Part shown: one piece after another, positions 3,415-28,548 of the stretch
Layout: every line of letters begins with the position of its first letter
Numbering within the stretch: position 1 is the first letter of the stretch
UHGV virus genome: UHGV-0097092
From: a virus
Strand: one strand, 5' to 3'
DNA length: 44,628 nt
The notes under the pieces: model-generated
Seen by the model: only the letters and a program-made list of their open reading frames with translations
What the model was told of the DNA's origin: nothing
The model's database searches: none
Position numbers and translations under genes: made by a program

Positions 3415-3688
3415 TGATATTTACCTTTATCGCGTAAACCTTTACCGGTTTATCGCCGAAGTGGGGATGCGTGATTGTCTTGATTTCATATCCGTCATAC
3501 GGGACGTCTATTCTGCGGCTGGAATCATCGCGCTTCGGATATCCCTTTGTGATAATCAGGCGGTCATACTCGCGGAACAGAATTCGCTTATTCCAGTAGT
3601 CATTACACAAGCGATACTCTTCCGTTTTCTCTCCAGACTTCATCTGGTCGAAATATTCACCGTTAACTGCCAGTTGAAGGTTAGCCAC
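3407..3688 (-). CDS. ASCH-domain protein (GTG start at 3688)
   Basis: GEKTEEYR matches the ASCH GxKTxExR signature; AGGAGG 6 nt upstream of GTG. Confidence 0.55.
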   Translation of the reverse strand: MANLQLAVNGEYFDQMKSGEKTEEYRLCNDYWNKRILFREYDRLIITKGYPKRDDSSRRIDVPYDGYEIKTITHPHFGDKPVKVYAIKVNING

Positions 3689-4508
3689 GGTTAACCTCCT
3701 GCGGCGGTTCTGGTAGCGGCATCCAGTGTGACGGTTTCCACGACGCCCCAGGAATGATCCACCCATCATTAGCGTCAGGATGCCCCGGGATGTAAGTCGC
3801 CCATTTCATTCGCCAGTCACCTTTCCTATCAAACTCCTTGGCAACAAGAACGGCTGTTTTGGTATCCGGCATTCGCTCACTACAGCTTATCCAACCATCC
3901 GGAGTTACCGGATAGTTGCGCATTGCGACCTTTAATGCCTCATAGAAGCAACCTTTCAGATTGTTGAACTGACGCCCATTAAGAGGACCGTGTTCAGTAA
4001 GCATGTTGCGTAATTTCCATGCCGCGTCGTTTACTTCGTTGGATGACAGGGGAGGCAACTTGTAAGTTTGGCTTACAGGTTCGGCACCATGAAGCATGGC
4101 GCCGCTCCGCTCTATGCCATCCAGCGCGATTCGCAGTGCCTGAATTGTGGTAGAGCTATCGTTTGGGGCTATTCCATATCGCTCGAATACAGCTAAATGG
4201 TTGCGCATAATCTCAGGCGTAAGCTCTTTGTAAGCATAAGCAAGAGGCTCTGATGCATTATCCGGCACAACCGACGCAGGCGCGGCAGCATAAACAGGAA
4301 TAACGTCCGCTTGCTCTTTATTGCTTTCATCCGTTAAAGCCCAGAATAATTTCCCGGCCGGATGTTTGAAAATATAAGCAACTGGATCTGCTTCCAGCGA
4401 TGCCAGTGCAATTTCATAAGCACGGCGCTCAATATTGTCTCGAACGTCCAAGCTGCCTATGCGCTCTTTGATTTCTTTAATCAGTTCTTTGTCGGTTAAA
4501 GTGGTCAT
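3681..4508 (-). CDS. DUF551-containing phage protein
   Basis: C-terminal W...SCSERMPD...WMPLPEPP pattern typical of DUF551. Confidence 0.6.
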   Translation of the reverse strand: MTTLTDKELIKEIKERIGSLDVRDNIERRAYEIALASLEADPVAYIFKHPAGKLFWALTDESNKEQADVIPVYAAAPASVVPDNASEPLAYAYKELTPEIMRNHLAVFERYGIAPNDSSTTIQALRIALDGIERSGAMLHGAEPVSQTYKLPPLSSNEVNDAAWKLRNMLTEHGPLNGRQFNNLKGCFYEALKVAMRNYPVTPDGWISCSERMPDTKTAVLVAKEFDRKGDWRMKWATYIPGHPDANDGWIIPGASWKPSHWMPLPEPPQEVNRG

Positions 4509-4714
4509 TTGTTAATCCTCAAAACTTTATGCCCGGGCGCAAAAGCACGCGTTTTGTCTTTGCTTATTCGCCAGCCATCCTTGCGCGCCTCTTTTGCACA
4601 GCCAGCCCATGACGTACCTATATACTCACCGAAGTCTGGCGACTTATATTTGCCATCTGTACACTGGAGGCAATCACAATAGAGATGCATGGTGTAACTT
4701 GCAGCGATAGCCAT
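4505..4714 (-). CDS. small Cys-rich hypothetical protein (69 aa)
   Basis: ATG at 4714 with AGGAG upstream; MAIAASYTMHLYCDCLQC... Confidence 0.45.
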   Translation of the reverse strand: MAIAASYTMHLYCDCLQCTDGKYKSPDFGEYIGTSWAGCAKEARKDGWRISKDKTRAFAPGHKVLRINK

Positions 4715-4715
4715 A

Positions 4716-4904
4716 TCACTCTCCTTTAGTGCGCAAGTGGTTTTTCCAGCGGTTTTGCGCCGCGCTGGGCTTTTTGCAAAAACCACAATCCATCATCCCG
4801 TAATATTTCATCAACCCCATCCGTCGGTTGCTGAGTCTCACCCACTGCCAGACGCCAGGAGCGTTTCTACGAACTAACAGAATCTTTGCTTTACGGTTTT
4901 TCAT
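4716..4904 (-). CDS. small basic protein (62 aa, begins MKNRKAK)
   Basis: ORF; start region duplicated about 175 bp upstream. Confidence 0.3.
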   Translation of the reverse strand: MKNRKAKILLVRRNAPGVWQWVRLSNRRMGLMKYYGMMDCGFCKKPSAAQNRWKNHLRTKGE

Positions 4905-5077
4905 CTTACAGCGTACCCTTTCTTCCGCCTGTTCTGTGACGCAGTAGGCTTACGCTTTGCGGCAAAAGCCACCTGACCAAATGGATGGAGTACCGCTATC
5001 TTATGGTTGCTAATAACCAGCTCCACCACACGCACAGGTCGCTGTAAAAAAAGTCGTTTTGCCTTACGGTTTTTCAT
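4901..5077 (-). CDS. small basic protein paralogue (58 aa, begins MKNRKAK), my own ORF call
   Basis: hand-translated; stop overlaps the next start as ATGA; shares the ttacggtttttcatc start region with 4716..4904. Confidence 0.3.
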   Translation of the reverse strand: MKNRKAKRLFLQRPVRVVELVISNHKIAVLHPFGQVAFAAKRKPTASQNRRKKGYAVR

Positions 5078-5249
5078 CGCTTTGCTCTCCTGCGTCTCTT
5101 TGCTGCTCGTCGTGCCGCTGCAATACCGGTATGGCGGCGCTTTGGTGCCGGGATGATGTTGTCAGCCATCAGGACATGTGGCTTTGCAATTAGCGCAGAA
5201 GCCCAAAAACGAGTCGGGTACGGTAACAAGCCGATACATGCCACACGCA

Positions 5250-5744
5250 CTACTCACCTCCGTTGATGCGAATGCCTGTTGCAATGCTGTTTATGATGCT
5301 GTCAGTGCATGGAGTAGAAAGCTGGGCATCTCCAGCAATTTTCATGACCTCAACATCTGCATATCGAATACCGAGGTGTATCAGACCTGCTATGCCTGAC
5401 TTAAGCCGAGCATTTTCCATAAATAGAACCTTTGCCATCTGTTTTTCTGCTTCAAGCTCAACGCGCAGCTTCCCTACCGTTAGCGCAATATCCTCGTTCT
5501 CCTGGTCGCGGAGTTTGATGTATTGCTGGTTTTTTTCCCGTTCATCCAGTAGTGCCAAAGCAACCTTTGGATTAAAGGCAGCAATAAATTCAGCGTTGTT
5601 TTTCAGAACGTGTTGCGCAATGGCCTGACTACTTAGTCGGACCTCATAACCACGTGCGCCACGGTGTGGTTTATATGAGTCCCAGTCTCCCCACGTTGCT
5701 TTCTCTGCCGCCTCACGCAGTGCCTGGTAATTAATTTCGCTCAC
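5250..5744 (-). CDS. Ead/Ea22-like protein
   Basis: N-terminus MSEINYQALREAAEKAT... typical of Ea22-like prophage proteins. Confidence 0.55.
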   Translation of the reverse strand: MSEINYQALREAAEKATWGDWDSYKPHRGARGYEVRLSSQAIAQHVLKNNAEFIAAFNPKVALALLDEREKNQQYIKLRDQENEDIALTVGKLRVELEAEKQMAKVLFMENARLKSGIAGLIHLGIRYADVEVMKIAGDAQLSTPCTDSIINSIATGIRINGGE

Positions 5745-6358
5745 TGGTTGCCTCCTTTGCGAAGCTGTTCAGCAATACTTACGCATATCTCTGCGCCTCT
5801 AATCAGCCCCGGAACGTTCTTGTTTGGCCCAACTTCACCATCAACAAAATCAATCATCGCGTTACGAGCCATATCCACCCCCTGCGCCCGCACTTCCGCC
5901 AGGAAAGCGTCGGTAGCTGGCGTTTCGCTGTGGTGCAGGGCATCATTAATAATCATCGCAGCAACTCCGGCCTGCCCTGCATCCGTTACCGACACATGCT
6001 CAAGAGTTACGGCCATTGCGTGTTTCAGTCCGGCGTTCTCTGCCACCAGCGCCGCGATATTAGTTTCAAGCTCTGCAATACGGCACATAGCATCAATATT
6101 TGAGTCCTCCTGACGTTTAATTTCATCCAGTAGTGACAACGCAACTTTTGGTGGGATAGCCGCGATATAACGGGCATTAGCACCAGCATTCCTTTGTCCA
6201 TCAATGCCAGGCCAGTCAATAAAGTATCCGCAATGCCTACCTTCAGACGTGCGCGCAGGATAAATGCCGTTATGACCCGGCAAAATATATGCTACCCATT
6301 CATCTTGCGTTGCCTGTTCCGCCGCCTCGCGCAGTTCTTGATAGTTAATTTTGCTCAC
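5741..6358 (-). CDS. Ead/Ea22-like protein
   Basis: N-terminus MSKINYQELREAAEQAT; C-terminal module [17 protein letters not shown]...QLRKGGNQ shared with the gene at 8934..9650. Confidence 0.6.
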   Translation of the reverse strand: MSKINYQELREAAEQATQDEWVAYILPGHNGIYPARTSEGRHCGYFIDWPGIDGQRNAGANARYIAAIPPKVALSLLDEIKRQEDSNIDAMCRIAELETNIAALVAENAGLKHAMAVTLEHVSVTDAGQAGVAAMIINDALHHSETPATDAFLAEVRAQGVDMARNAMIDFVDGEVGPNKNVPGLIRGAEICVSIAEQLRKGGNQ

Positions 6359-6644
6359 TGGTTGCCTCCGCTTCCCACGTTTTCAGACTTTCACCACAGA
6401 ATGGGCAAAATGAAACTCGAATAGGCGATTTAGAAAATTCACCAGACCGCAGCATGATCAGGTCCTGTGAATGAATTAATTCATGGTTATAGACTTTGTA
6501 TTTCAGCAGGCCTTTTCGCGTCGTGTATTCAGCATCCTGCTCCAGAGATTGTGCCAGCGCCGCGCACGGTTCTATTTTTCTGCCATTAATCAAACAAGTG
6601 GAGATTCTGCACTTTGCAGCTCCGTCACCGTTACCTTGACTCAT
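6345..6644 (-). CDS. small zinc-ribbon-like protein
   Basis: 99 aa with CxxxC ... CPFCG motifs. Confidence 0.45.
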   Translation of the reverse strand: MSQGNGDGAAKCRISTCLINGRKIEPCAALAQSLEQDAEYTTRKGLLKYKVYNHELIHSQDLIMLRSGEFSKSPIRVSFCPFCGESLKTWEAEATSEQN

Positions 6645-16184: not shown

Positions 16185-16544
16185 TCATACACCAACCAGG
16201 CTTTCAAGAGGAATGCCAAACTGGGAATGTAAACGACGAATCATAGGTAACGTTAAATTTCGTGTCCCATTTAGCACTTCGTAAACACGATTTGACTTAC
16301 CAATCGCCGGTTCCAGATCCTTCACGGTCAGCCCTTGCTGTTCCATACGGAATTTAATGGCTTCAATAGGTGATGGTGGCTCAATTGGGTAATGCTTTTT
16401 CTCGTACTCTTCAATGAGCAGGCACATTACTTCAAAGAAATCGCCTTCCGGTGTGTTCATTTCCGGTTCGTTATCGAACATCGGTTCGACCGCACGCAGT
16501 GCGGCCTCATAATCTTGTTCTGTACGGATAGGTTTAATGTTCAT
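16185..16544 (-). CDS. higA: HigA-family antitoxin (XRE-type HTH)
   Basis: C-terminal HTH IGKSNRVYEVLNGTRNLTLPMIRRLHSQFGIP; sits directly downstream of the HigB-like toxin gene. Confidence 0.65.
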   Translation of the reverse strand: MNIKPIRTEQDYEAALRAVEPMFDNEPEMNTPEGDFFEVMCLLIEEYEKKHYPIEPPSPIEAIKFRMEQQGLTVKDLEPAIGKSNRVYEVLNGTRNLTLPMIRRLHSQFGIPLESLVGV

Positions 16545-16547
16545 GAT

Positions 16548-16850
16548 TTACTCCAGTTCTATTGTATCAGCTTCAATGGCATCGTATTCCTTATGTGTTC
16601 CAATAAACTTAACGAACATCCATCCTCGCTGATAAGCAATTGCGACAATTAACCTGTAATCATTTCCCTTAATATTGAACACCACGCGCCTGTTTTTAAG
16701 GATGCTGGCTGTCCGGTACTGTTCTTTGATCTCAGCCGGATTTTTCCAGTCAGCCTTTGTTGCTTCATCAACCCATGCCTTTAATGGCTGTTCTGCATCG
16801 GGATTCTTCGCCCAGAAATCCCTTAGTGTTTTTACCGAAATTATTTTCAT
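16548..16850 (-). CDS. higB: HigB-family (RelE/ParE-fold) toxin
   Basis: start MKIISVKTL; VFNIKGNDYRLIVAIAY...FVKFIGTHKEYD pattern typical of HigB. Confidence 0.65.
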   Translation of the reverse strand: MKIISVKTLRDFWAKNPDAEQPLKAWVDEATKADWKNPAEIKEQYRTASILKNRRVVFNIKGNDYRLIVAIAYQRGWMFVKFIGTHKEYDAIEADTIELE

Positions 16851-20244: not shown

Positions 20245-21150
20245 ATGAGATCAGTCGCTTTCAAAAACATCTTCATCTATCGTCTTTCACGTGAAGTTAA
20301 CTGGAGTGCCGCAGAAGTATCCGATGCTCTTAGCAAATTCGTGTTTACTCCTTGCGGTTCTCAGGACACAGCTAAAGTCGGTTGGACACCTGTTCTTGGT
20401 GACAACCTCACCCATGAATACCAGGGTTTTCTGCTAATACAGCATAAGCGAGAAGAAAAAATTCTCCCCTCGCAGGTGCTCAAGGAAGAGTTGCAGAAAA
20501 AAGTCCTGAAACTCGAAGAAGAGCAAGCCCGCAAGCTGAAGAAAACGGAAAGAGACAGTCTTAAAGATGAAGTCCTGCATTCACTTTTGCCTCGCGCGTT
20601 CACGAGAAAATCACTCGCCAAAATCCTGATCGACCGCAGCAACCATCTGGTATTCGTTGAGGCAAGCAGCGCCAAAAAGGCAGAGGACCAGCTGGCTTTA
20701 TTGCGAAAGTCGCTCGGCAGCCTGCCTGTCATTCCATTCACACCACGCGAACCGCTGGAAATTACAATGACCGAGTGGTTTAAAAGCGGCTTCCCTGCCG
20801 GATTTACAGCAGGTGAAGACGCCACATTAAAGGGTCTGCTCGATAATGGTGGTGCCGTTCGCTGCAACAAAGTTGATCTACAGTCCGACGAGATTATGTC
20901 TCACATTGAGGCGGGGAAAGTAGCTACGACCGTTGCAATTAACTGGATGGACCGTGCGTCGTTCAGAGTCAACGATGATATGAGTATCAAAGCCCTGACA
21001 TTCTGTGATGATCTCTATGACCAGAACGACGATATCGACCGGGAGGATGTAGCACAACGATTTGATGCTGATTTCGTGCTCTTTACGGGTGAATTATCTG
21101 CACTGTTTAACGCGCTGGTGGAGGCCATTGGCGGTGAAGCAGAACGATAA
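20245..21150 (+). CDS. rdgC: recombination-associated protein RdgC
   Basis: full-length similarity to recalled E. coli RdgC ([68 protein letters not shown]). Confidence 0.85.
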
Positions 21151-21193
21151 TAACCGACCGCTTGTTGTGAGTCTTTGTGATTTTACGGGGGCA

Positions 21194-21814
21194 ATGGTTG
21201 CCCCCTGGCTGGAATACGGTGTCGATGCCGCTATCGTCGATCCACAGCACTTATCGACCAGTGACGAGCGGATGCAATCAGGTGCCGTTCTGACGCGTAT
21301 TAGTGCGATCATCGATAGCGATGAAGTATACGCTTTTCTCCGTAAGAATTTGCAGCGCATCGTGTTTCTGGCCGGGTTCCCACCGTGTACTGACCTGGCT
21401 GTTTCCGGCGCGCGCTGGTTTTCGGACAAGGCTAATAAAGATCCGGTTTTCCAGTTCAAAGCAATGCAGGTTGTCTGGCAGTGTTATGACATTGCAAAGA
21501 TGATCGGTTGTCCGTACATGATTGAAAATCCGGTCAGCAAAATATCGACATTCTGGCGTAAGCCAGATCACATCTTTCACCCTTACTTCTTCACTGCATA
21601 TTGTCAGGAAGATAACTACACCAAAAAAACATGCCTCTGGAGCGGCCAGGGCTTTGTCATGCCTGATGCCCTAATGGACGAATCATTAGGCAAGCCAGAT
21701 AACAGAATCCATGCCGCGCCACCAGGGCCTGACAGGGCTAATTTCCGAAGTGCTACTCCACATGGATTCGCAAAGGCAGTTTTCGAAGCGAATAAGGGGG
21801 TGCTCTATGAGTAA
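21194..21814 (+). CDS. short C5-cytosine methyltransferase-like protein lacking an obvious target-recognition domain
   Basis: about 206 aa with motif I-like LCDFTGAM, motif IV-like GFPPCTDLAVSGA, motif VI-like MIENPV; start uncertain (ATG 21194 or upstream GTG/TTG). Confidence 0.45.
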   Translation: MVAPWLEYGVDAAIVDPQHLSTSDERMQSGAVLTRISAIIDSDEVYAFLRKNLQRIVFLAGFPPCTDLAVSGARWFSDKANKDPVFQFKAMQVVWQCYDIAKMIGCPYMIENPVSKISTFWRKPDHIFHPYFFTAYCQEDNYTKKTCLWSGQGFVMPDALMDESLGKPDNRIHAAPPGPDRANFRSATPHGFAKAVFEANKGVLYE

Positions 21815-22712
21815 ATCTATAGCAAGCATAGCCATAGAAAAACAGGATACGATGGCTGAAATTAGCTATATGCGCACCATTCGGACTCCGGATGAATATG
21901 AGCGTCCGATATTCAAATGGGTAGGTGGTAAATTCTCAGAATTGCCTACAGTGCTTGAGCATCTACCACACGGTAAGCGGTTAATAGAACCATTCGTTGG
22001 TGGCGGTTCCGTATTTACGAATGCAGGATTTCGCCACAACCTGCTTAATGATATTAACGGTGACCTGATTAACTTCTATCAGACATTGCAGCGAGAAGGA
22101 CATTCGCTCGTCACGCTGTCATATAGTTTTTTCAAAAATTACAACAACGCTGACGCTTACCTCGAAGTGCGTGAGGCATTTAACAGAGGAAAATATGACC
22201 AGCTACATCATGCTGCCGCATTTTTGTACCTTAATCGTCACTGTTTTAATGGCGTAACGCGGTACAACCAAAATGGCGAGTTCAACGTGGGGTATGGCAA
22301 ATACAAAGCGCCCTACTTCCCACATGCAGAGATGGAGGCATTTTTGGCTGATGACGTACTCAAAAACACTTCCTTTGTATCAGGAGACTTTGCTAGCGTC
22401 ATCGAGGCGGCTGGTGAAGACGATGTGATTTTTTGTGATCCGCCGTATGAACCGCTTCCGGATACAGAGGGATTTACCAGCTATTCAGGAAATAGCTTCC
22501 GTTTCGATGAACAAAAACGGCTTGTATCACTGTTGGTGGATGCCCACCAGCGCGGCGCTAAGGTAGTGATAACAAATAGTGGTGCTCCAAACATCCGTGA
22601 GCTATATGAAGGAAACGGGTTTAAAGTACATCATATGGCAGCCAGACGGTCGGTTTCCTGCAAGGCGTCAACACGTGTAGTTGCTAACGATATAATTGCA
22701 ATAATGAAGTAA
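21807..22712 (+). CDS. dam: Dam-family DNA N6-adenine methyltransferase
   Basis: FKWVGGK, EPFVGGGSVF, FLYLNRHCFNG and DPPY motifs; 8-bp overlap with upstream gene. Confidence 0.8.
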   Translation: MSKSIASIAIEKQDTMAEISYMRTIRTPDEYERPIFKWVGGKFSELPTVLEHLPHGKRLIEPFVGGGSVFTNAGFRHNLLNDINGDLINFYQTLQREGHSLVTLSYSFFKNYNNADAYLEVREAFNRGKYDQLHHAAAFLYLNRHCFNGVTRYNQNGEFNVGYGKYKAPYFPHAEMEAFLADDVLKNTSFVSGDFASVIEAAGEDDVIFCDPPYEPLPDTEGFTSYSGNSFRFDEQKRLVSLLVDAHQRGAKVVITNSGAPNIRELYEGNGFKVHHMAARRSVSCKASTRVVANDIIAIMK

Positions 22713-22760: not shown

Positions 22761-24422
22761 TTAACCTAACTTCGCCCAGGTATCACGCAGCCCAACGGTG
22801 CGGTTAAATACCGGTTTTTCCGCCGTAGAATGGCGGCTGTCGAGGCAGAAATAACCTTCACGCTCAAACTGGAATGCTTTACCCGCTACCGCTTCTTTCA
22901 GCGACGGTTCAGCAAAGCCTTGTTTGATCACCAGCGATTCCGGGTTAATCACCGACAGGAAATCATCCGCAGCACCAGGGTTCGGCACGCTGAACAGACG
23001 GTCGTACAGACGGATTTCAACCGGCAGCGCATGTGCCGCGCTCACCCAGTGAATAACACCTTTGACTTTACGACCATCTGCCGGATCTTTGCTTAAGGTG
23101 TCGGCGTCATAAGTACAGAAGATGGTGGTGATATTGCCTTCGGCATCTTTCTCCACGCGTTCAGCCTTAATGACGTAAGCATTACGCAGACGCACTTCTT
23201 TACCCAGCACCAGACGTTTGTACTGCTTGTTAGCTTCTTCTCGGAAATCGGCGCGGTCGATCCAAATCTCACCGCTAAACGGCACCTGACGGCTACCCAT
23301 TTCCGGTTTGTTTGGATGGTTCGGCATGGTGACCATTTCGCCTTCGCCCTGGTAGTTTTCGATAACCAGTTTCACCGGATCGATAACCGCCATTGCGCGC
23401 GGCGCATTTTCGTTGAGATCTTCACGGATGCAGGATTCCAGCGACGCCATCTCAATGGTGTTGTCCTGCTTGGTCACGCCGATGCGTTTGCAGAACTCAC
23501 GAATAGAAGCCGCAGTGTAACCACGACGACGCAGACCGGAAATGGTCGGCATACGCGGGTCATCCCAGCCTTCAACGTGCTTGTCGGTCACCAGCAGGTT
23601 CAGCTTACGCTTGGACATCACAGTGTATTCCAGATTCAGGCGCGAGAATTCGTACTGGCGCGGGTGAACAGGAATGGTGATGTTGTCCAGCACCCAGTCG
23701 TACAGGCGACGGTTGTCCTGGAACTCAAGCGTACACAGAGAGTGCGTAATACCTTCCAGCGCATCGCTGATGCAGTGGGTGAAGTCGTACATCGGGTAGA
23801 TGCACCACTTGTTGCCAGTCTGGTGGTGTTCAGCAAATTTAATACGGTACAGCACCGGATCGCGCATCACGATAAACGGTGAAGCCATGTCGATTTTCGC
23901 ACGCAGGCAGGCTTTACCTTCTTCAAAACCACCGGCACGCATTTTTTCGAACAGCGCCAGGTTCTCTTCAACGCTGCGGTCGCGGTACGGGCTGTTTTTA
24001 CCCGGTTGCGTCAGGGTGCCGCGGTATTCGCGGATCTGTTCCGGCGTCAGTTCATCAACGTACGCCAGGCCTTTATTGATCAGTTCGATCGCATAGGCGT
24101 GGAGCTGATCAAAATAATCGGAGGAGTAACGGACGTTACCAGACCAGTGAAAACCTAACCACTCTACGTCGTTTTTGATCGACTCAACATACTCGATATC
24201 TTCTTTTACCGGGTTAGTGTCGTCGAAACGCAGGTTGCACTGGCCTTTATAGTCCTGGGCGATCCCGAAGTTCAGGCAGATAGATTTCGCATGGCCAATA
24301 TGCAGATAGCCATTTGGTTCCGGCGGGAAACGGGTATGTACTGTGGTGTGCTTACCACTGGCCAGATCTTCATCGATGATCTGACGAATGAAGTTAGTCG
24401 GGCGGGCTTCTGCCTCACTCAT
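22761..24422 (-). CDS. glnS: glutaminyl-tRNA synthetase, near-identical to E. coli GlnRS as recalled
   Basis: 553 aa; N-terminus [52 protein letters not shown] and VMSKR class I motifs. Confidence 0.95.
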
Positions 24423-27457: not shown

Positions 27458-27742
27458 ATGAGCGCAATAGCCACCAGCGACACCCTTTGTTCTGGTCACG
27501 GAGGATTTCCGCCGCGACTGGTAGCTGAAACCGTTCCCTGGTTCACCGTTAACGGTAAGCCAGTTGTTGTAGATGGTGCCATGTTTCCCAGTCACACTGA
27601 CGGTAACAGTGCACATCCAGGGGCAGCTGTATCGACGCGAGTATGGTTTTCGATAGGTGGAAAGGGAGTTGTCTGTGTAGGCGATCCGCTTTCTTGTGGT
27701 TCTGTTATCGCCAACGGCGAGGATATTTTTCAGGTTGCATAA
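27458..27742 (+). CDS. PAAR-like spike-tip protein (T4 gp5.4-like)
   Basis: 94 aa; CSGHGG...NGKPVVVDG...VCVGDPLSCGSVIANG pattern. Confidence 0.6.
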   Translation: MSAIATSDTLCSGHGGFPPRLVAETVPWFTVNGKPVVVDGAMFPSHTDGNSAHPGAAVSTRVWFSIGGKGVVCVGDPLSCGSVIANGEDIFQVA

Positions 27743-28548
27743 TGCTTGATTCAATAGGTGAAGTTAAAGCCTTCAAAATTCTGTCAGATGCCGGTATCTC
27801 TACACCAGAATCTATAACCATAAGCCGGGCAGCTTCTGTAAAAGCCTCATCGCTCGCCAGCGCCATACAGGGAATAGTTCACGCCGATAAAACCTATCCT
27901 GATTCTGTTTCGGCCTGGACTACTCAATTGCTTGGCTTTTCTGAACAGCTCAATGAGGCCAGCAAAGCGTCTTCATCACTGGCTGATTCTCTTTCCCCAT
28001 ACACCAAGCCATCAGAGCTGTTACAGATGAAGATTGGCTGGGAATGCTACGCAAAAGGTAACGAGCTGACCCCCATACCTGCTTTCGCCCTTGTTGAGGG
28101 AATGGGGAATGTTTCCATTCCGCAATCTCTAACGGACGCATTGACGGCGCTAAAACTTGATGCTCTGAAAACCGCCATGAACGCCATTAACGCAAAAATT
28201 GAAGCTGCCGGAAGTGCTGGTGGTGGTGAAAGCAATGGTGGACAGGGTGGTGCTGGGGGCGCTCAGGCTCCAGTCATTACTCAGGATGAAATTGATGCTT
28301 TACGGGAAGCAGTGACAGCCGCCGAAGTTTTACTCTCCGAAATTAACTCAGCAAGTGAGGGTGTCGTAGCCCTTACAGGTCGCATTAAAACGTCAACCAC
28401 TCAGGCAACCAAAGGTTTAGAGAACGCTGTCGCCATCACGTTAACTGGTTCTCTACTGGATGATGCAGTAATGAGTCCGGCAATCAGTTTAATCATGCCA
28501 CAAGGCGTTATCGATGCGCTCCAAAAGAACACCAAAAAGGAACCATAG
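27742..28548 (+). CDS. hypothetical protein with Gly-rich linker, translationally coupled to the PAAR-like gene
   Basis: 268 aa starting MLDSIGEV; TAATG overlap; central GSAGGGESNGGQGGAGGAQ linker. Confidence 0.45.
   Translation: MLDSIGEVKAFKILSDAGISTPESITISRAASVKASSLASAIQGIVHADKTYPDSVSAWTTQLLGFSEQLNEASKASSSLADSLSPYTKPSELLQMKIGWECYAKGNELTPIPAFALVEGMGNVSIPQSLTDALTALKLDALKTAMNAINAKIEAAGSAGGGESNGGQGGAGGAQAPVITQDEIDALREAVTAAEVLLSEINSASEGVVALTGRIKTSTTQATKGLENAVAITLTGSLLDDAVMSPAISLIMPQGVIDALQKNTKKEP

What the first reader, a model, noticed from the sequence alone, without database searches (positions are those of the whole stretch)
4716..5168. Tandem small, highly basic ORFs with duplicated start regions and ATGA overlaps
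Two consecutive minus-strand ORFs both begin MKNRKAK and share about 17 bp around the start (ttacggtttttcatc at 4883-4899 and 5063-5079). A third short basic ORF (MADNIIPAPKRR...) lies upstream, and each stop overlaps the next start. This looks like a recently duplicated family of small Arg/Lys-rich proteins, possibly nucleic-acid-binding or host-takeover peptides, that ORF callers usually miss.
Basis: seen in the sequence. Interest (0 to 1): 0.4.

Follow-up and report, generated by a model that had tools for sequence, protein, structure and literature searches.

The report
Tandem small basic phage genes
Three overlapping genes for tiny, very positively charged proteins sit in the accessory early region of an E. 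coli phage-plasmid; they are real and already catalogued but unstudied, two of them are old (not recent) copies of one phage-only family, and their function is unknown.

Summary
Three minus-strand ORFs are present: C 5074-5250, B 4901-5077 and A 4716-4904. They are chained by ATGA stop/start overlaps. A and B share a 21-nt start region (20/21 identical) and the N-terminus MKNRKAK.

All three are genuine coding genes. Substitutions in relatives are 49% synonymous in frame 0, against 19-25% in the other frames. MKNRKAK is conserved at the protein level (pN/pS 0.10).

A and B are only 37% identical. Both belong to an orphan family of Enterobacterales phages (PHROG 1380: VT2-Sakai p08, phiV10 gp50/51, D6 orf101). 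The duplication is therefore ancient, not recent.

Relatives carry arrays of 1-3 copies in mixed type orders. Position-specific tail modules carry the next gene's ribosome-binding site, which suggests shuffling at the conserved ends.

The predicted fold is helix, three strands, helix (pLDDT 76), with no structural or sequence relative of known function. Charge is +14 to +15. Nucleic-acid binding is the best guess and is untested.

The exact proteins already have RefSeq accessions, although B and C go unannotated in most identical records. Interest is low to moderate.

The parts
5074..5250 (-). Gene C: 58-aa protein with a hydrophobic N-terminal half and a poly-Arg/Lys C-terminal tail (...AAARRAAKRRRRAKR). 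PHROG 13831, RefSeq WP_001261538.1. Its last codons carry the Shine-Dalgarno sequence for B, and its stop overlaps B's start (ATGA).
   Evidence: The start position is ATG in 82 homologue copies and GTG in 58. An in-frame 21-nt deletion variant exists. pN/pS is 0.32 in frame 0, against 2.38 and 0.86 in the other frames. tblastn finds residues 1-43 conserved at 81-100% in 67 phage records.
5256..5261 (-). GGAGGT Shine-Dalgarno sequence, 5 nt upstream of the GTG start of C. It lies inside the last codons of the upstream Ea22-like gene.
   Evidence: Read directly from the sequence.
4901..5077 (-). Gene B: 58-aa family member of the 'first-position' type (B1), MKNRKAKRLFLQRPVRVVELVISNHK...QNRRKKGYAVR. 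RefSeq WP_000797289.1. It is an optional cassette, absent from about half of related loci.
   Evidence: phrog_1380 E = 6.5e-23. Within-type pN/pS is 0.20 in frame 0, against 2.2 and 3.1. Substitutions are 13 synonymous to 6 nonsynonymous, P = 4.8e-6.
4716..4904 (-). Gene A: 62-aa family member of the 'last-position' type (T1), MKNRKAKILLVRRNAPGVWQWVRLSNRR...KPSAAQNRWKNHLRTKGE. RefSeq WP_000797279.1.
   Evidence: phrog_1380 E = 1e-40. Substitutions are 14 synonymous to 15 nonsynonymous in frame 0, against 6:23 and 6:21 in the other frames, P = 4.5e-4. The AlphaFold model has pLDDT 76.
5058..5078 (-). Start-region repeat, copy 1: GATGAAAAACCGTAAGGCAAA. It encodes MKNRKAK of B and includes the ATGA overlap with C.
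4885..4905 (-). Start-region repeat, copy 2: GATGAAAAACCGTAAAGCAAA. It encodes MKNRKAK of A and includes the ATGA overlap with B.
4901..4936 (-). Inter-copy linker module: CAGAACAGGCGGAAGAAAGGGTACGCTGTAAGATGA. It encodes the tail QNRRKKGYAVR* and leads into the next MKNRKAK start. It is near-identical behind different body types in other phages.
4716..4757 (-). Terminal linker module: CAAAACCGCTGGAAAAACCACTTGCGCACTAAAGGAGAGTGA. It encodes the tail QNRWKNHLRTKGE* and contains AAGGAG (4721-4726), the Shine-Dalgarno sequence of the following gene. It is identical behind body types T1, T1b, T2 and T3.
4505..4714 (-). Downstream neighbour D: 69 aa, 4 Cys, phrog_926, WP_000951706.1. It starts 1 nt after A's stop. 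It is context, not a family member.

Best explanation
What it is (shown). C, B and A form a tightly packed string of three genuine small-protein genes. They lie inside a long leftward accessory operon (about 11.1 kb down to 1.5 kb, minus strand) of a D6/P1-type phage-plasmid. The module is of the lambdoid 'ea/exo-xis' kind: Ea22-like, then C, B, A, D, then DUF551.

B and A are ancient paralogues of an orphan family restricted to Enterobacterales phages (PHROG 1380). Family members share:
- an invariant basic N-terminus, MKNRKAK
- a variable three-stranded beta core built around an invariant Ser-Asn turn
- a conserved basic C-terminal helix, K-P-S/T-A-A/S-Q-N-R...

The repeated 21 nt at the two starts is the coding sequence of the conserved N-terminus plus the ATGA overlap.

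How it is expressed (inferred from the sequence). Each gene's tail encodes the ribosome-binding site of the next. A has only a weak, distant Shine-Dalgarno sequence, so it probably depends on termination-reinitiation at the ATGA overlap.

How the arrays arise. Shown: related phages carry 1-3 copies in many type combinations, and two position-specific tail modules ('another copy follows' versus 'a different gene follows') are exchanged between bodies. Inferred: homologous recombination across the conserved start motif and the KPSAAQNR codons adds, removes and swaps cassettes.

Function (inferred, not shown). The proteins are about 60 aa with net charge +14 to +15. They have basic helices at both ends and invariant Arg, Ser and Asn residues. 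I think they most likely bind a polyanion, probably RNA or DNA, early in the phage programme. On this reading the conserved termini provide the common binding activity and the variable sheet sets specificity.
For: Coding:
- The N-terminal 9 codons have pS 0.39 and pN 0.04. Diversity by codon position is 0.04, 0.03 and 0.25.
- With each mutation counted once, frame 0 has 79 synonymous, 81 nonsynonymous and 1 stop. The other frames have 41/113/7 and 31/120/10. The binomial P for frame 0 is 3.7e-17.
- All length differences between types are in frame.
- C has pN/pS 0.32 in frame 0, and ATG and GTG alternate at position 5250.

Paralogy:
- A and B are 37% identical, E = 5e-10. Both hit phrog_1380.

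Family range:
- 203 clusters at 90% identity.
- Only 48 clusters at 50% identity among 1.84 billion representatives.
- Sources are Escherichia, Salmonella, Citrobacter, Enterobacter and Hafnia.

Arrays and tail rule:
- 114 distinct contexts show 13 full-length architectures (plus two with a truncated copy).
- The tail ...GYAVR* is always followed by another copy through ATGA.
- The tail ...LRTKGE* is followed by diverse other genes, almost always 1 nt after the stop.
- The linker DNA modules are identical across body types.

Context.

Structure and charge:
- Topology is alpha-beta-beta-beta-alpha, pLDDT 76.
Against: Nothing shows function.
- There are no significant Pfam, NCBIfam, PADLOC or PDB-sequence hits.
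- Foldseek finds nothing outside the family.
- hhalign gives no support for the nucleic-acid-binding folds I tried.
- No literature was found.

The model has only moderate confidence (pTM 0.43).

Purifying selection on the variable core is moderate. The pooled within-type pN/pS is 0.43, and pairwise statistics in two types do not separate the frames.

High positive charge also fits binding to acidic proteins or to membranes.

Recombination at the conserved ends is inferred from chimeric sequences. It was not observed.
Confidence: 0.6

Rival explanations
1. Anti-defence or host-takeover effectors that bind host or competitor proteins rather than nucleic acid. The deep diversification of the beta core, and the arrays of different types, would reflect an arms race with variable targets.
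For: They lie in an early accessory region that is variable in gene content. [quoted passage not shown] Several body types are combined in arrays. The termini are conserved and the core is variable.
Against: There is no sign of positive selection. pN/pS is below 1 within every type and 0.71 across all pairs, where divergence is saturated. No match was found to a known anti-defence fold. The Acb4 Foldseek hit has E = 0.9 and probability 0.06. PADLOC holds defence systems, not anti-defence proteins, so its silence is uninformative.
Confidence: 0.2
2. Cationic toxic or membrane-active peptides, for example for host shut-off or superinfection exclusion.
For: They are very basic and small. C has a hydrophobic N-terminal half followed by a polybasic tail.
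Against: A and B have no hydrophobic segment long enough to span a membrane. Their GRAVY values are -0.87 and -0.53. The predicted fold is a compact alpha/beta unit. The genes are carried stably by hundreds of plasmids and prophages.
Confidence: 0.08
3. Spacer ORFs whose role is only to pass ribosomes along the operon by translational coupling. The peptides themselves would be dispensable.
For: Stops and starts overlap, and each tail carries the next gene's Shine-Dalgarno sequence. The core is highly variable. Rare variants (P0054, P0060) read the middle in another frame but return to frame 0 before the tail.
Against: The N-terminal peptide is under strong amino-acid-level constraint (pN/pS 0.10). 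Ser25, Asn26 and Asn51 are invariant across 50 diverse members. Within-type pN/pS is as low as 0.12-0.20. A pure spacer would not conserve residues in the middle.
Confidence: 0.07
4. One reading: a recent tandem duplication still visible as a shared start sequence.
For: There is a 21-nt near-identical repeat at the two starts.
Against: Outside the start and the KP..QNR segment the two genes are unalignable at the DNA level, and the proteins are 37% identical. B-type and A-type genes are each conserved as distinct lineages in many phages. Even within the repeat the two copies differ at a synonymous site, and across the family pS in this segment is 0.39.
Confidence: 0.03
5. No proteins at all: the conserved ends are DNA- or RNA-level elements (recombination linkers, an RNA structure), and the ORFs are incidental.
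For: The conserved ends behave as module boundaries. Inverted repeats occur in the terminal linker.
Against: The substitution pattern is frame-specific. There is no Rfam hit. The candidate hairpin at 4737-4786 folds no better than shuffled sequence, z = -0.58.
Confidence: 0.02

Closest known systems
PHROG 1380 family of uncharacterised phage proteins: VT2-Sakai p08, phiV10 gp50 and gp51, D6 orf101, RefSeq WP_000797279.1 and WP_000797289.1
   Same: A and B are members (E = 1e-40 and 6.5e-23, full-length matches). phiV10 has the same layout, with a C homologue followed by two tandem copies and then a D homologue. Its GenBank note already says p51 is similar to p50.
   Different: Nothing differs in kind. 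The window has the B1 + T1 combination, which is the commonest architecture (35 of 114 contexts). The family has no assigned function.
Small proteins of the lambda / Stx-phage exo-xis region (Orf60a, Orf61, Orf63, Orf73, Ea8.5, Ea22)
   Same: Same kind of place: small non-essential genes transcribed early, next to ea22. PMC8614690 reports that these genes modulate the lysis-lysogeny decision and models several as nucleic-acid or RNA-polymerase binders. In 933W the A homologue lies just downstream of the Ea22-like L0069.
   Different: There is no sequence relationship to any of them. The family lies in the variable part downstream of ea22, not in the conserved orf60a-ea22 block. Here the module sits in a P1/D6-type phage-plasmid rather than between exo and xis.
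Arginine-rich-motif RNA-binding peptides such as the N antiterminators of lambdoid phages (from my own knowledge, not tested)
   Same: Short, helical, Arg/Lys/Ala/Gln-rich segments in early phage proteins. Examples here are the tail of C (AAARRAAKRRRRAKR) and the C-terminal helix of A (SAAQNRWKNHLRTK).
   Different: No homology has been shown and no target hairpin identified. A and B have a folded beta core that N peptides lack.
Mosaic module boundaries of lambdoid phages: short conserved junction sequences at which recombination exchanges genes (from my own knowledge: Juhala et al. 2000, Clark et al. 2001, De Paepe et al. 2014)
   Same: Conserved junction segments of 20-40 nt flank variable bodies. 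The same linkers are found next to different neighbours.
   Different: Here the junctions lie inside the coding sequence of one small-protein family. This produces tandem arrays of 1-3 paralogous cassettes rather than swaps of unrelated genes.

Membership tests
PHROG 1380 (uncharacterised small phage protein) | Full-length match to the 62-position family profile | tested here: met
   A: E = 1e-40, residues 1-62 on profile positions 1-62. B: E = 6.5e-23, residues 1-58 on profile positions 1-60.
PHROG 1380 (uncharacterised small phage protein) | Signature residues seen in the family alignment: MKNRKAK start, Ser-Asn turn, QNR in the C-terminal helix | tested here: met
   R4, S25, N26 and N51 are invariant. 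M1, K2, N3, K5, A6, Q50 and R52 are at least 90% conserved in 50 diverse members. A and B both have them.
PHROG 13831 (gene C) | Full-length match to the 58-position profile | tested here: met
   E = 8.6e-42, residues 1-58 on profile positions 1-58, using the 5250 start.
C2H2 zinc finger (Pfam zf-C2H2_jaz, dsRNA-binding) | Score above the gathering threshold, and a conserved Cys2-His2 ligand set | tested here: not met
   A scores 13.3 bits against a cut-off of 22.6. A has C-x2-C-x12-H but no second His. B has no Cys at all. The Cys positions vary across the family.
dsRBD / HicA-type alpha-beta3-alpha fold | Detectable profile or structural similarity to dsRBD or HicA | tested here: not met
   hhalign probability is 0.1% for the RNase III dsRBD and 1.7% for HicA. 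No dsRBD appears among the listed Foldseek PDB hits. HicA-like BFVD hits have E = 0.55-0.99. Only the order of secondary-structure elements agrees.
Three-stranded-sheet DNA-binding domains (lambda Int arm-binding domain, AP2/ERF) | Detectable profile or structural similarity | tested here: not met
   hhalign probability is 0.1% for both. No such hits are listed by Foldseek, and there are no Pfam hits among 50 members.
Conserved exo-xis genes of lambda (orf60a, orf61, orf63, orf73) | Sequence homology to one of these genes | tested here: not met
   tblastn places the A homologue in 933W-type Stx phages at about 3766-3951. The lambda-like genes L0070-L0072 are separate and lie at 5193-5837. Searching the exo-xis modelling paper for MKNRKAK and L0066 found neither.
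Known anti-phage defence components (PADLOC) | Match to any PADLOC model | tested here: not met
   No hits at E <= 0.1 for A, B, C, D or their neighbours.
Known RNA families (Rfam) | Covariance-model match in 4716-5250 | tested here: not met
   The only match in 3500-6500 is a weak RsmY hit at 3946-4020, outside the locus, E = 0.64.

The most novel reading that the evidence does not exclude
The 1-3 copy arrays are a recombination-driven cassette system. The invariant termini would serve two roles: as the common functional handle of the protein, and as the homology arms that let phages swap, add or drop specificity-determining beta cores. This would give each phage a tailored set of small basic binders against variable host or rival-phage targets, for example defence RNAs or DNAs, or acidic defence proteins. 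That would be a new class of modular small-protein counter-defence locus shared by lambdoid prophages and P1/D6 phage-plasmids.
Probability: 0.12. Interest if true: 0.6.

Novelty: already known. Interest (0 to 1): 0.27.

Why it matters
These genes occur in medically important Stx-converting prophages (933W, VT2-Sakai) and in the P1/D6-type phage-plasmids that carry resistance genes. They sit in the early accessory region, which is known to influence the lysis-lysogeny decision. Nobody has studied this family.

Three results are useful:
- The frames are under protein-level selection.
- B and C are unannotated in most of the identical RefSeq records checked, and the original 933W annotation has a wrong gene model here (L0068).
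- The family forms shuffled cassette arrays.

This corrects annotation and gives a defined, cheap target for functional work. As it stands it is a catalogued 'hypothetical protein' family, not a new kind of system.

Tried and rejected
Searches that found nothing useful:
- Pfam, NCBIfam and PADLOC scans of A, B, C and D. The only hit was a sub-threshold zf-C2H2_jaz match for A.
- Pfam over 50 family members. No consistent weak hit: Inhibitor_G39P in 5 of 50, best E = 0.007.
- PDB sequence searches with A, with B and with the family profile. Nothing at E <= 0.5, and zero hits for the profile.
- Foldseek of the pLDDT-76 model. The best PDB hit had E = 0.5. The only real BFVD hit was a family member in phage Av-05.
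- Rfam at the E-value threshold. Nothing in the locus.
- Literature searches by accession, motif and locus tag. Nothing relevant.
- The Phi24B exo-xis paper and the exo-xis modelling paper. A term search found no mention of these ORFs.

Ideas tested and dropped:
- hhalign of the family profile against the lambda Int arm-binding domain, AP2/ERF, the RNase III dsRBD and HicA. All probabilities were below 2%.
- An RNA hairpin at 4737-4786. z = -0.58, rejected.
- A zinc-finger reading of CGFC...H in A. The ligands are not conserved and B has no Cys.
- A signal-peptide reading of MKNRKAKILLV. The hydrophobic run is only 4 residues before RR.

A technical limit: the first structure prediction, with 24 sequences, was too poor to use (pLDDT 64). 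Pairwise pN/pS in the variable core alone separates the frames poorly in types T1 and T3. I replaced it with a test that counts each mutation once.

Full report
**1. Observation**

The minus strand of 4700-5260 contains three short ORFs in a chain:
- A, 4716..4904, 62 aa, MKNRKAKILLVRRNAPGVWQWVRLSNRRMGLMKYYGMMDCGFCKKPSAAQNRWKNHLRTKGE
- B, 4901..5077, 58 aa, MKNRKAKRLFLQRPVRVVELVISNHKIAVLHPFGQVAFAAKRKPTASQNRRKKGYAVR
- an upstream basic ORF

B's stop overlaps A's start in ATGA (4901-4904). The upstream ORF's stop overlaps B's start in the same way (5074-5077).

The repeat at the two starts is 21 nt with 20/21 identity, at 4885-4905 and 5058-5078. The pattern occurs nowhere else in the window and in none of 100 shuffles.

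**2. Are these real genes?**

I collected 85 distinct DNA sequences of full-length family members from viral contigs. I aligned them by codon.

- The first nine codons show synonymous divergence of 0.39 but non-synonymous divergence of 0.04 (ratio 0.10). Diversity by codon position is 0.04, 0.03 and 0.25.
- The KPSAAQNR segment has a ratio of 0.28.
- The shared start is therefore conserved as the peptide MKNRKAK, not as DNA.
- In the variable core, pairwise statistics are noisier. The pooled within-type ratio is 0.43, and two types do not separate the frames.
- I therefore counted every segregating mutation once, against its type consensus. Frame 0 has 79 synonymous, 81 non-synonymous and 1 stop. 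The other frames have 41/113/7 and 31/120/10.
- A uniform-mutation model predicts about 20% synonymous. The one-sided binomial P is 3.7e-17 for frame 0, and 0.27 and 0.87 for the other frames.
- Taken alone, A's type gives P = 4.5e-4 and B's type gives P = 4.8e-6.
- All length differences between types (58 to 64 aa) are in frame.

Translation itself was not observed. That needs experiments.

**3. The third ORF (C)**

The evidence favours 5250.
- GGAGGT lies 5 nt upstream of the GTG at 5250.
- The codon at that position is ATG in 82 of 140 homologous copies and GTG in 58.
- pN/pS is 0.32 in frame 0, against 2.38 and 0.86 in the other frames.
- The 58-aa form matches PHROG 13831 end to end (E = 8.6e-42). 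It is RefSeq WP_001261538.1.
- C has a hydrophobic N-terminal half and a polybasic tail, ...AAARRAAKRRRRAKR.

**4. What the family is**

- A and B are 37% identical (E = 5e-10). Both match PHROG 1380, function unknown, over their full length.
- The family has 203 clusters at 90% identity. It has only 48 clusters at 50% identity among 1.84 billion representatives.
- Named sources are Escherichia, Salmonella, Citrobacter, Enterobacter and Hafnia.
- Named members include VT2-Sakai p08, phiV10 gp50 and gp51, and D6 orf101.
- The phiV10 record already notes that p51 is similar to p50.
- In the original 933W annotation the A homologue is not called. Instead the downstream gene is over-extended through another frame (L0068).
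- A 50-member alignment shows invariant R4, S25, N26 and N51, near-invariant MKNRKA and A..QNR, and a very variable core of about 35 residues.
- I distinguished eight body types: T1 (= A), T1b, T1c, T2, T3, T3b, B1 (= B) and B2.

The duplication is therefore old. 'Recently duplicated' is not supported.

**5. Arrays and linkers**

- Among 114 distinct sequence contexts the family occurs as one, two or three tandem copies, in 13 full-length architectures. Two further contexts have a truncated copy.
- Counts include B1-T1 35, T1 alone 33, T3 alone 14, T2 6, T1b-T3 4, B2-T3 4, B1-T3 3, B1-T1-T1 2 and B1-T1-T3 1.
- B is thus an optional cassette.
- The last eight or so residues depend on position, not on body type.
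- The tail ...QNRRKKGYAVR* is always followed by another MKNRKAK gene through ATGA.
- The tail ...QNRWKNHLRTKGE* is followed by some other gene of varying identity, almost always 1 nt after the stop. There the AAGGAG in 'TKGE' is the next gene's Shine-Dalgarno sequence.
- At the DNA level the two tail modules are each nearly identical behind different bodies. They even use different codons for QNR: CAG AAC AGG versus CAA AAC CGC.
- Chimeras exist in which an A-type body carries the B-type tail.
- The junction upstream of the first copy (AGGAGAGCAAAGCG-ATGA) is kept even where the upstream gene differs.
- About 83% of contexts have a C-like polybasic-tailed ORF upstream.

I infer that recombination across the conserved start motif and the KPSA codons adds, deletes and swaps cassettes. 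This is inference from chimeras, not observation.

**6. Context**

- The window matches the 91.8-kb E. coli plasmid pTB423 at 100% identity over this locus.
- The record carries Ref, a maturation control protein, a pdcB-like DUF968 gene, hot/humD-like genes, ParM partition genes and virion genes. It is therefore a D6/P1-type phage-plasmid.
- The three genes lie in a long, tightly packed minus-strand gene string. It has no promoter-like site on that strand between 11.5 and 1.0 kb, and a strong terminator-like hairpin at 1473-1444.
- The local module (two Ea22-like genes, then C, B, A, D, then DUF551 and ASCH) is of the lambdoid ea/exo-xis type.
- The module is shared at 93-99% identity with P1-like phages (RCS47) and with Stx phages.
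- In complete E. coli genomes it occurs at 419 chromosomal and 297 plasmid places.
[quoted passage not shown] This family belongs to that variable set.

**7. Annotation status**

- All three proteins have RefSeq accessions.
- In the 25 best-matching E. coli records, 15 annotate only D and A, 8 annotate one more gene, and 2 annotate all four.
- pTB423, which is identical, leaves 4905-5249 blank.

'ORF callers usually miss' is therefore fair for B and C, but not for A.

**8. Function**

- Net charge is +14 (A), +15 (B) and +14 (C). pI is 11.3-12.0.
- AlphaFold2 with 50 sequences gives helix 4-12, strands 19-23, 28-33 and 38-43, and helix 48-59. pLDDT is 76 and pTM is 0.43. With 24 sequences pLDDT was 64.
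- Foldseek finds no significant PDB match. The only credible viral match is a family member in phage Av-05.
- Sequence and profile searches of Pfam, NCBIfam, PADLOC and PDB are empty.
- Leads suggested by the topology were the dsRBD, HicA, the lambda Int arm-binding domain and AP2.
- The CxxC...H in A is not conserved, and B has no cysteine.
- No RNA family or significant RNA structure overlaps the locus.
- No paper mentions these genes.

My best guess is binding of a polyanion, most likely RNA or DNA, through the two basic helices, with the variable sheet setting specificity. This rests only on composition, invariant Arg/Ser/Asn residues and genomic setting. I put it at about 0.35-0.4. I put the structural and evolutionary description at about 0.9.

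The rivals are protein-targeting anti-defence effectors (0.2), membrane-active or toxic peptides (0.08), pure coupling spacers (0.07), recent duplication (0.03) and non-coding elements (0.02).

**9. Verdict**

This is a real but ordinary feature. The genes are catalogued, uncharacterised small genes of a narrow phage family, arranged as a shuffled tandem array. The new points are modest: protein-level constraint on both termini, position-specific linker modules, the corrected start for C, and systematic under-annotation. Novelty is 'already known' as sequences, with function unknown. Interest is 0.27.

Noticed in passing
window 5250-5744 and 5741-6358 (minus strand): Two tandem Ead/Ea22-like genes lie directly upstream of C (Pfam PF13935, E = 1.8e-31 for the first). 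They form another duplicated pair in the same operon, and their stop and start overlap.
   Followed up: partly
window 4505-4786 (minus strand); 933W record AF125520.1 3546-3833: The 69-aa, 4-Cys gene D (4505-4714, phrog_926) can be extended upstream through an alternative frame of A, giving a 93-aa ORF from a GTG at 4786. The original 933W annotation (L0068, 95 aa) uses that extended model and omits the A homologue. This is probably a mis-annotation.
   Followed up: partly
window 22761-24422 (minus strand): The phage-plasmid carries a full-length glutamine--tRNA ligase (glnS) gene of 553 aa, as annotated in the identical plasmid pTB423. This is an unusual cargo gene for a P1/D6-type element.
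   Followed up: no
window about 16185-16850 (minus strand) and about 27473-27757 (plus strand): A HigB-family toxin with an HTH antitoxin pair, and a PAAR-domain protein, are annotated in the matching plasmid record among the tail genes.
   Followed up: no
window 3681-6358; E. coli complete genomes: The whole ea-type module (Ea22-like, C, B, A, D, DUF551) is shared at 93-99% identity between P1/D6-type phage-plasmids and chromosomal lambdoid/Stx prophages. There are 297 plasmid and 419 chromosomal places. This points to recent gene flow between these two kinds of temperate element.
   Followed up: partly
proteins P0054 and P0060 (Logan/ENA assemblies), compared with window 4726-4845: Two rare variants keep the N- and C-termini of the A type but read about 25 central codons in another frame (GETQQPTDGV...). 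That frame is also open in the window (39-aa ORF, 4726-4845). They are either compensating double frameshifts or assembly errors.
   Followed up: no
phage records H68 (Salmonella phage Sasha), H90 (Escherichia phage Av-05, 121 kb), H66 (Yersinia phage vB_YpM_39): Family members also occur outside lambdoid and P1-like phages, at 52-57% identity (95% in the Yersinia phage). The cassette therefore travels between unrelated phage types.
   Followed up: no
window 21873-22712 (plus strand): In pTB423 this stretch is annotated as a DNA adenine methylase pseudogene that lacks its N-terminus. The window lists a 333-aa ORF at 21711-22712 that overlaps a 250-aa ORF at 21062-21814.
   Followed up: no
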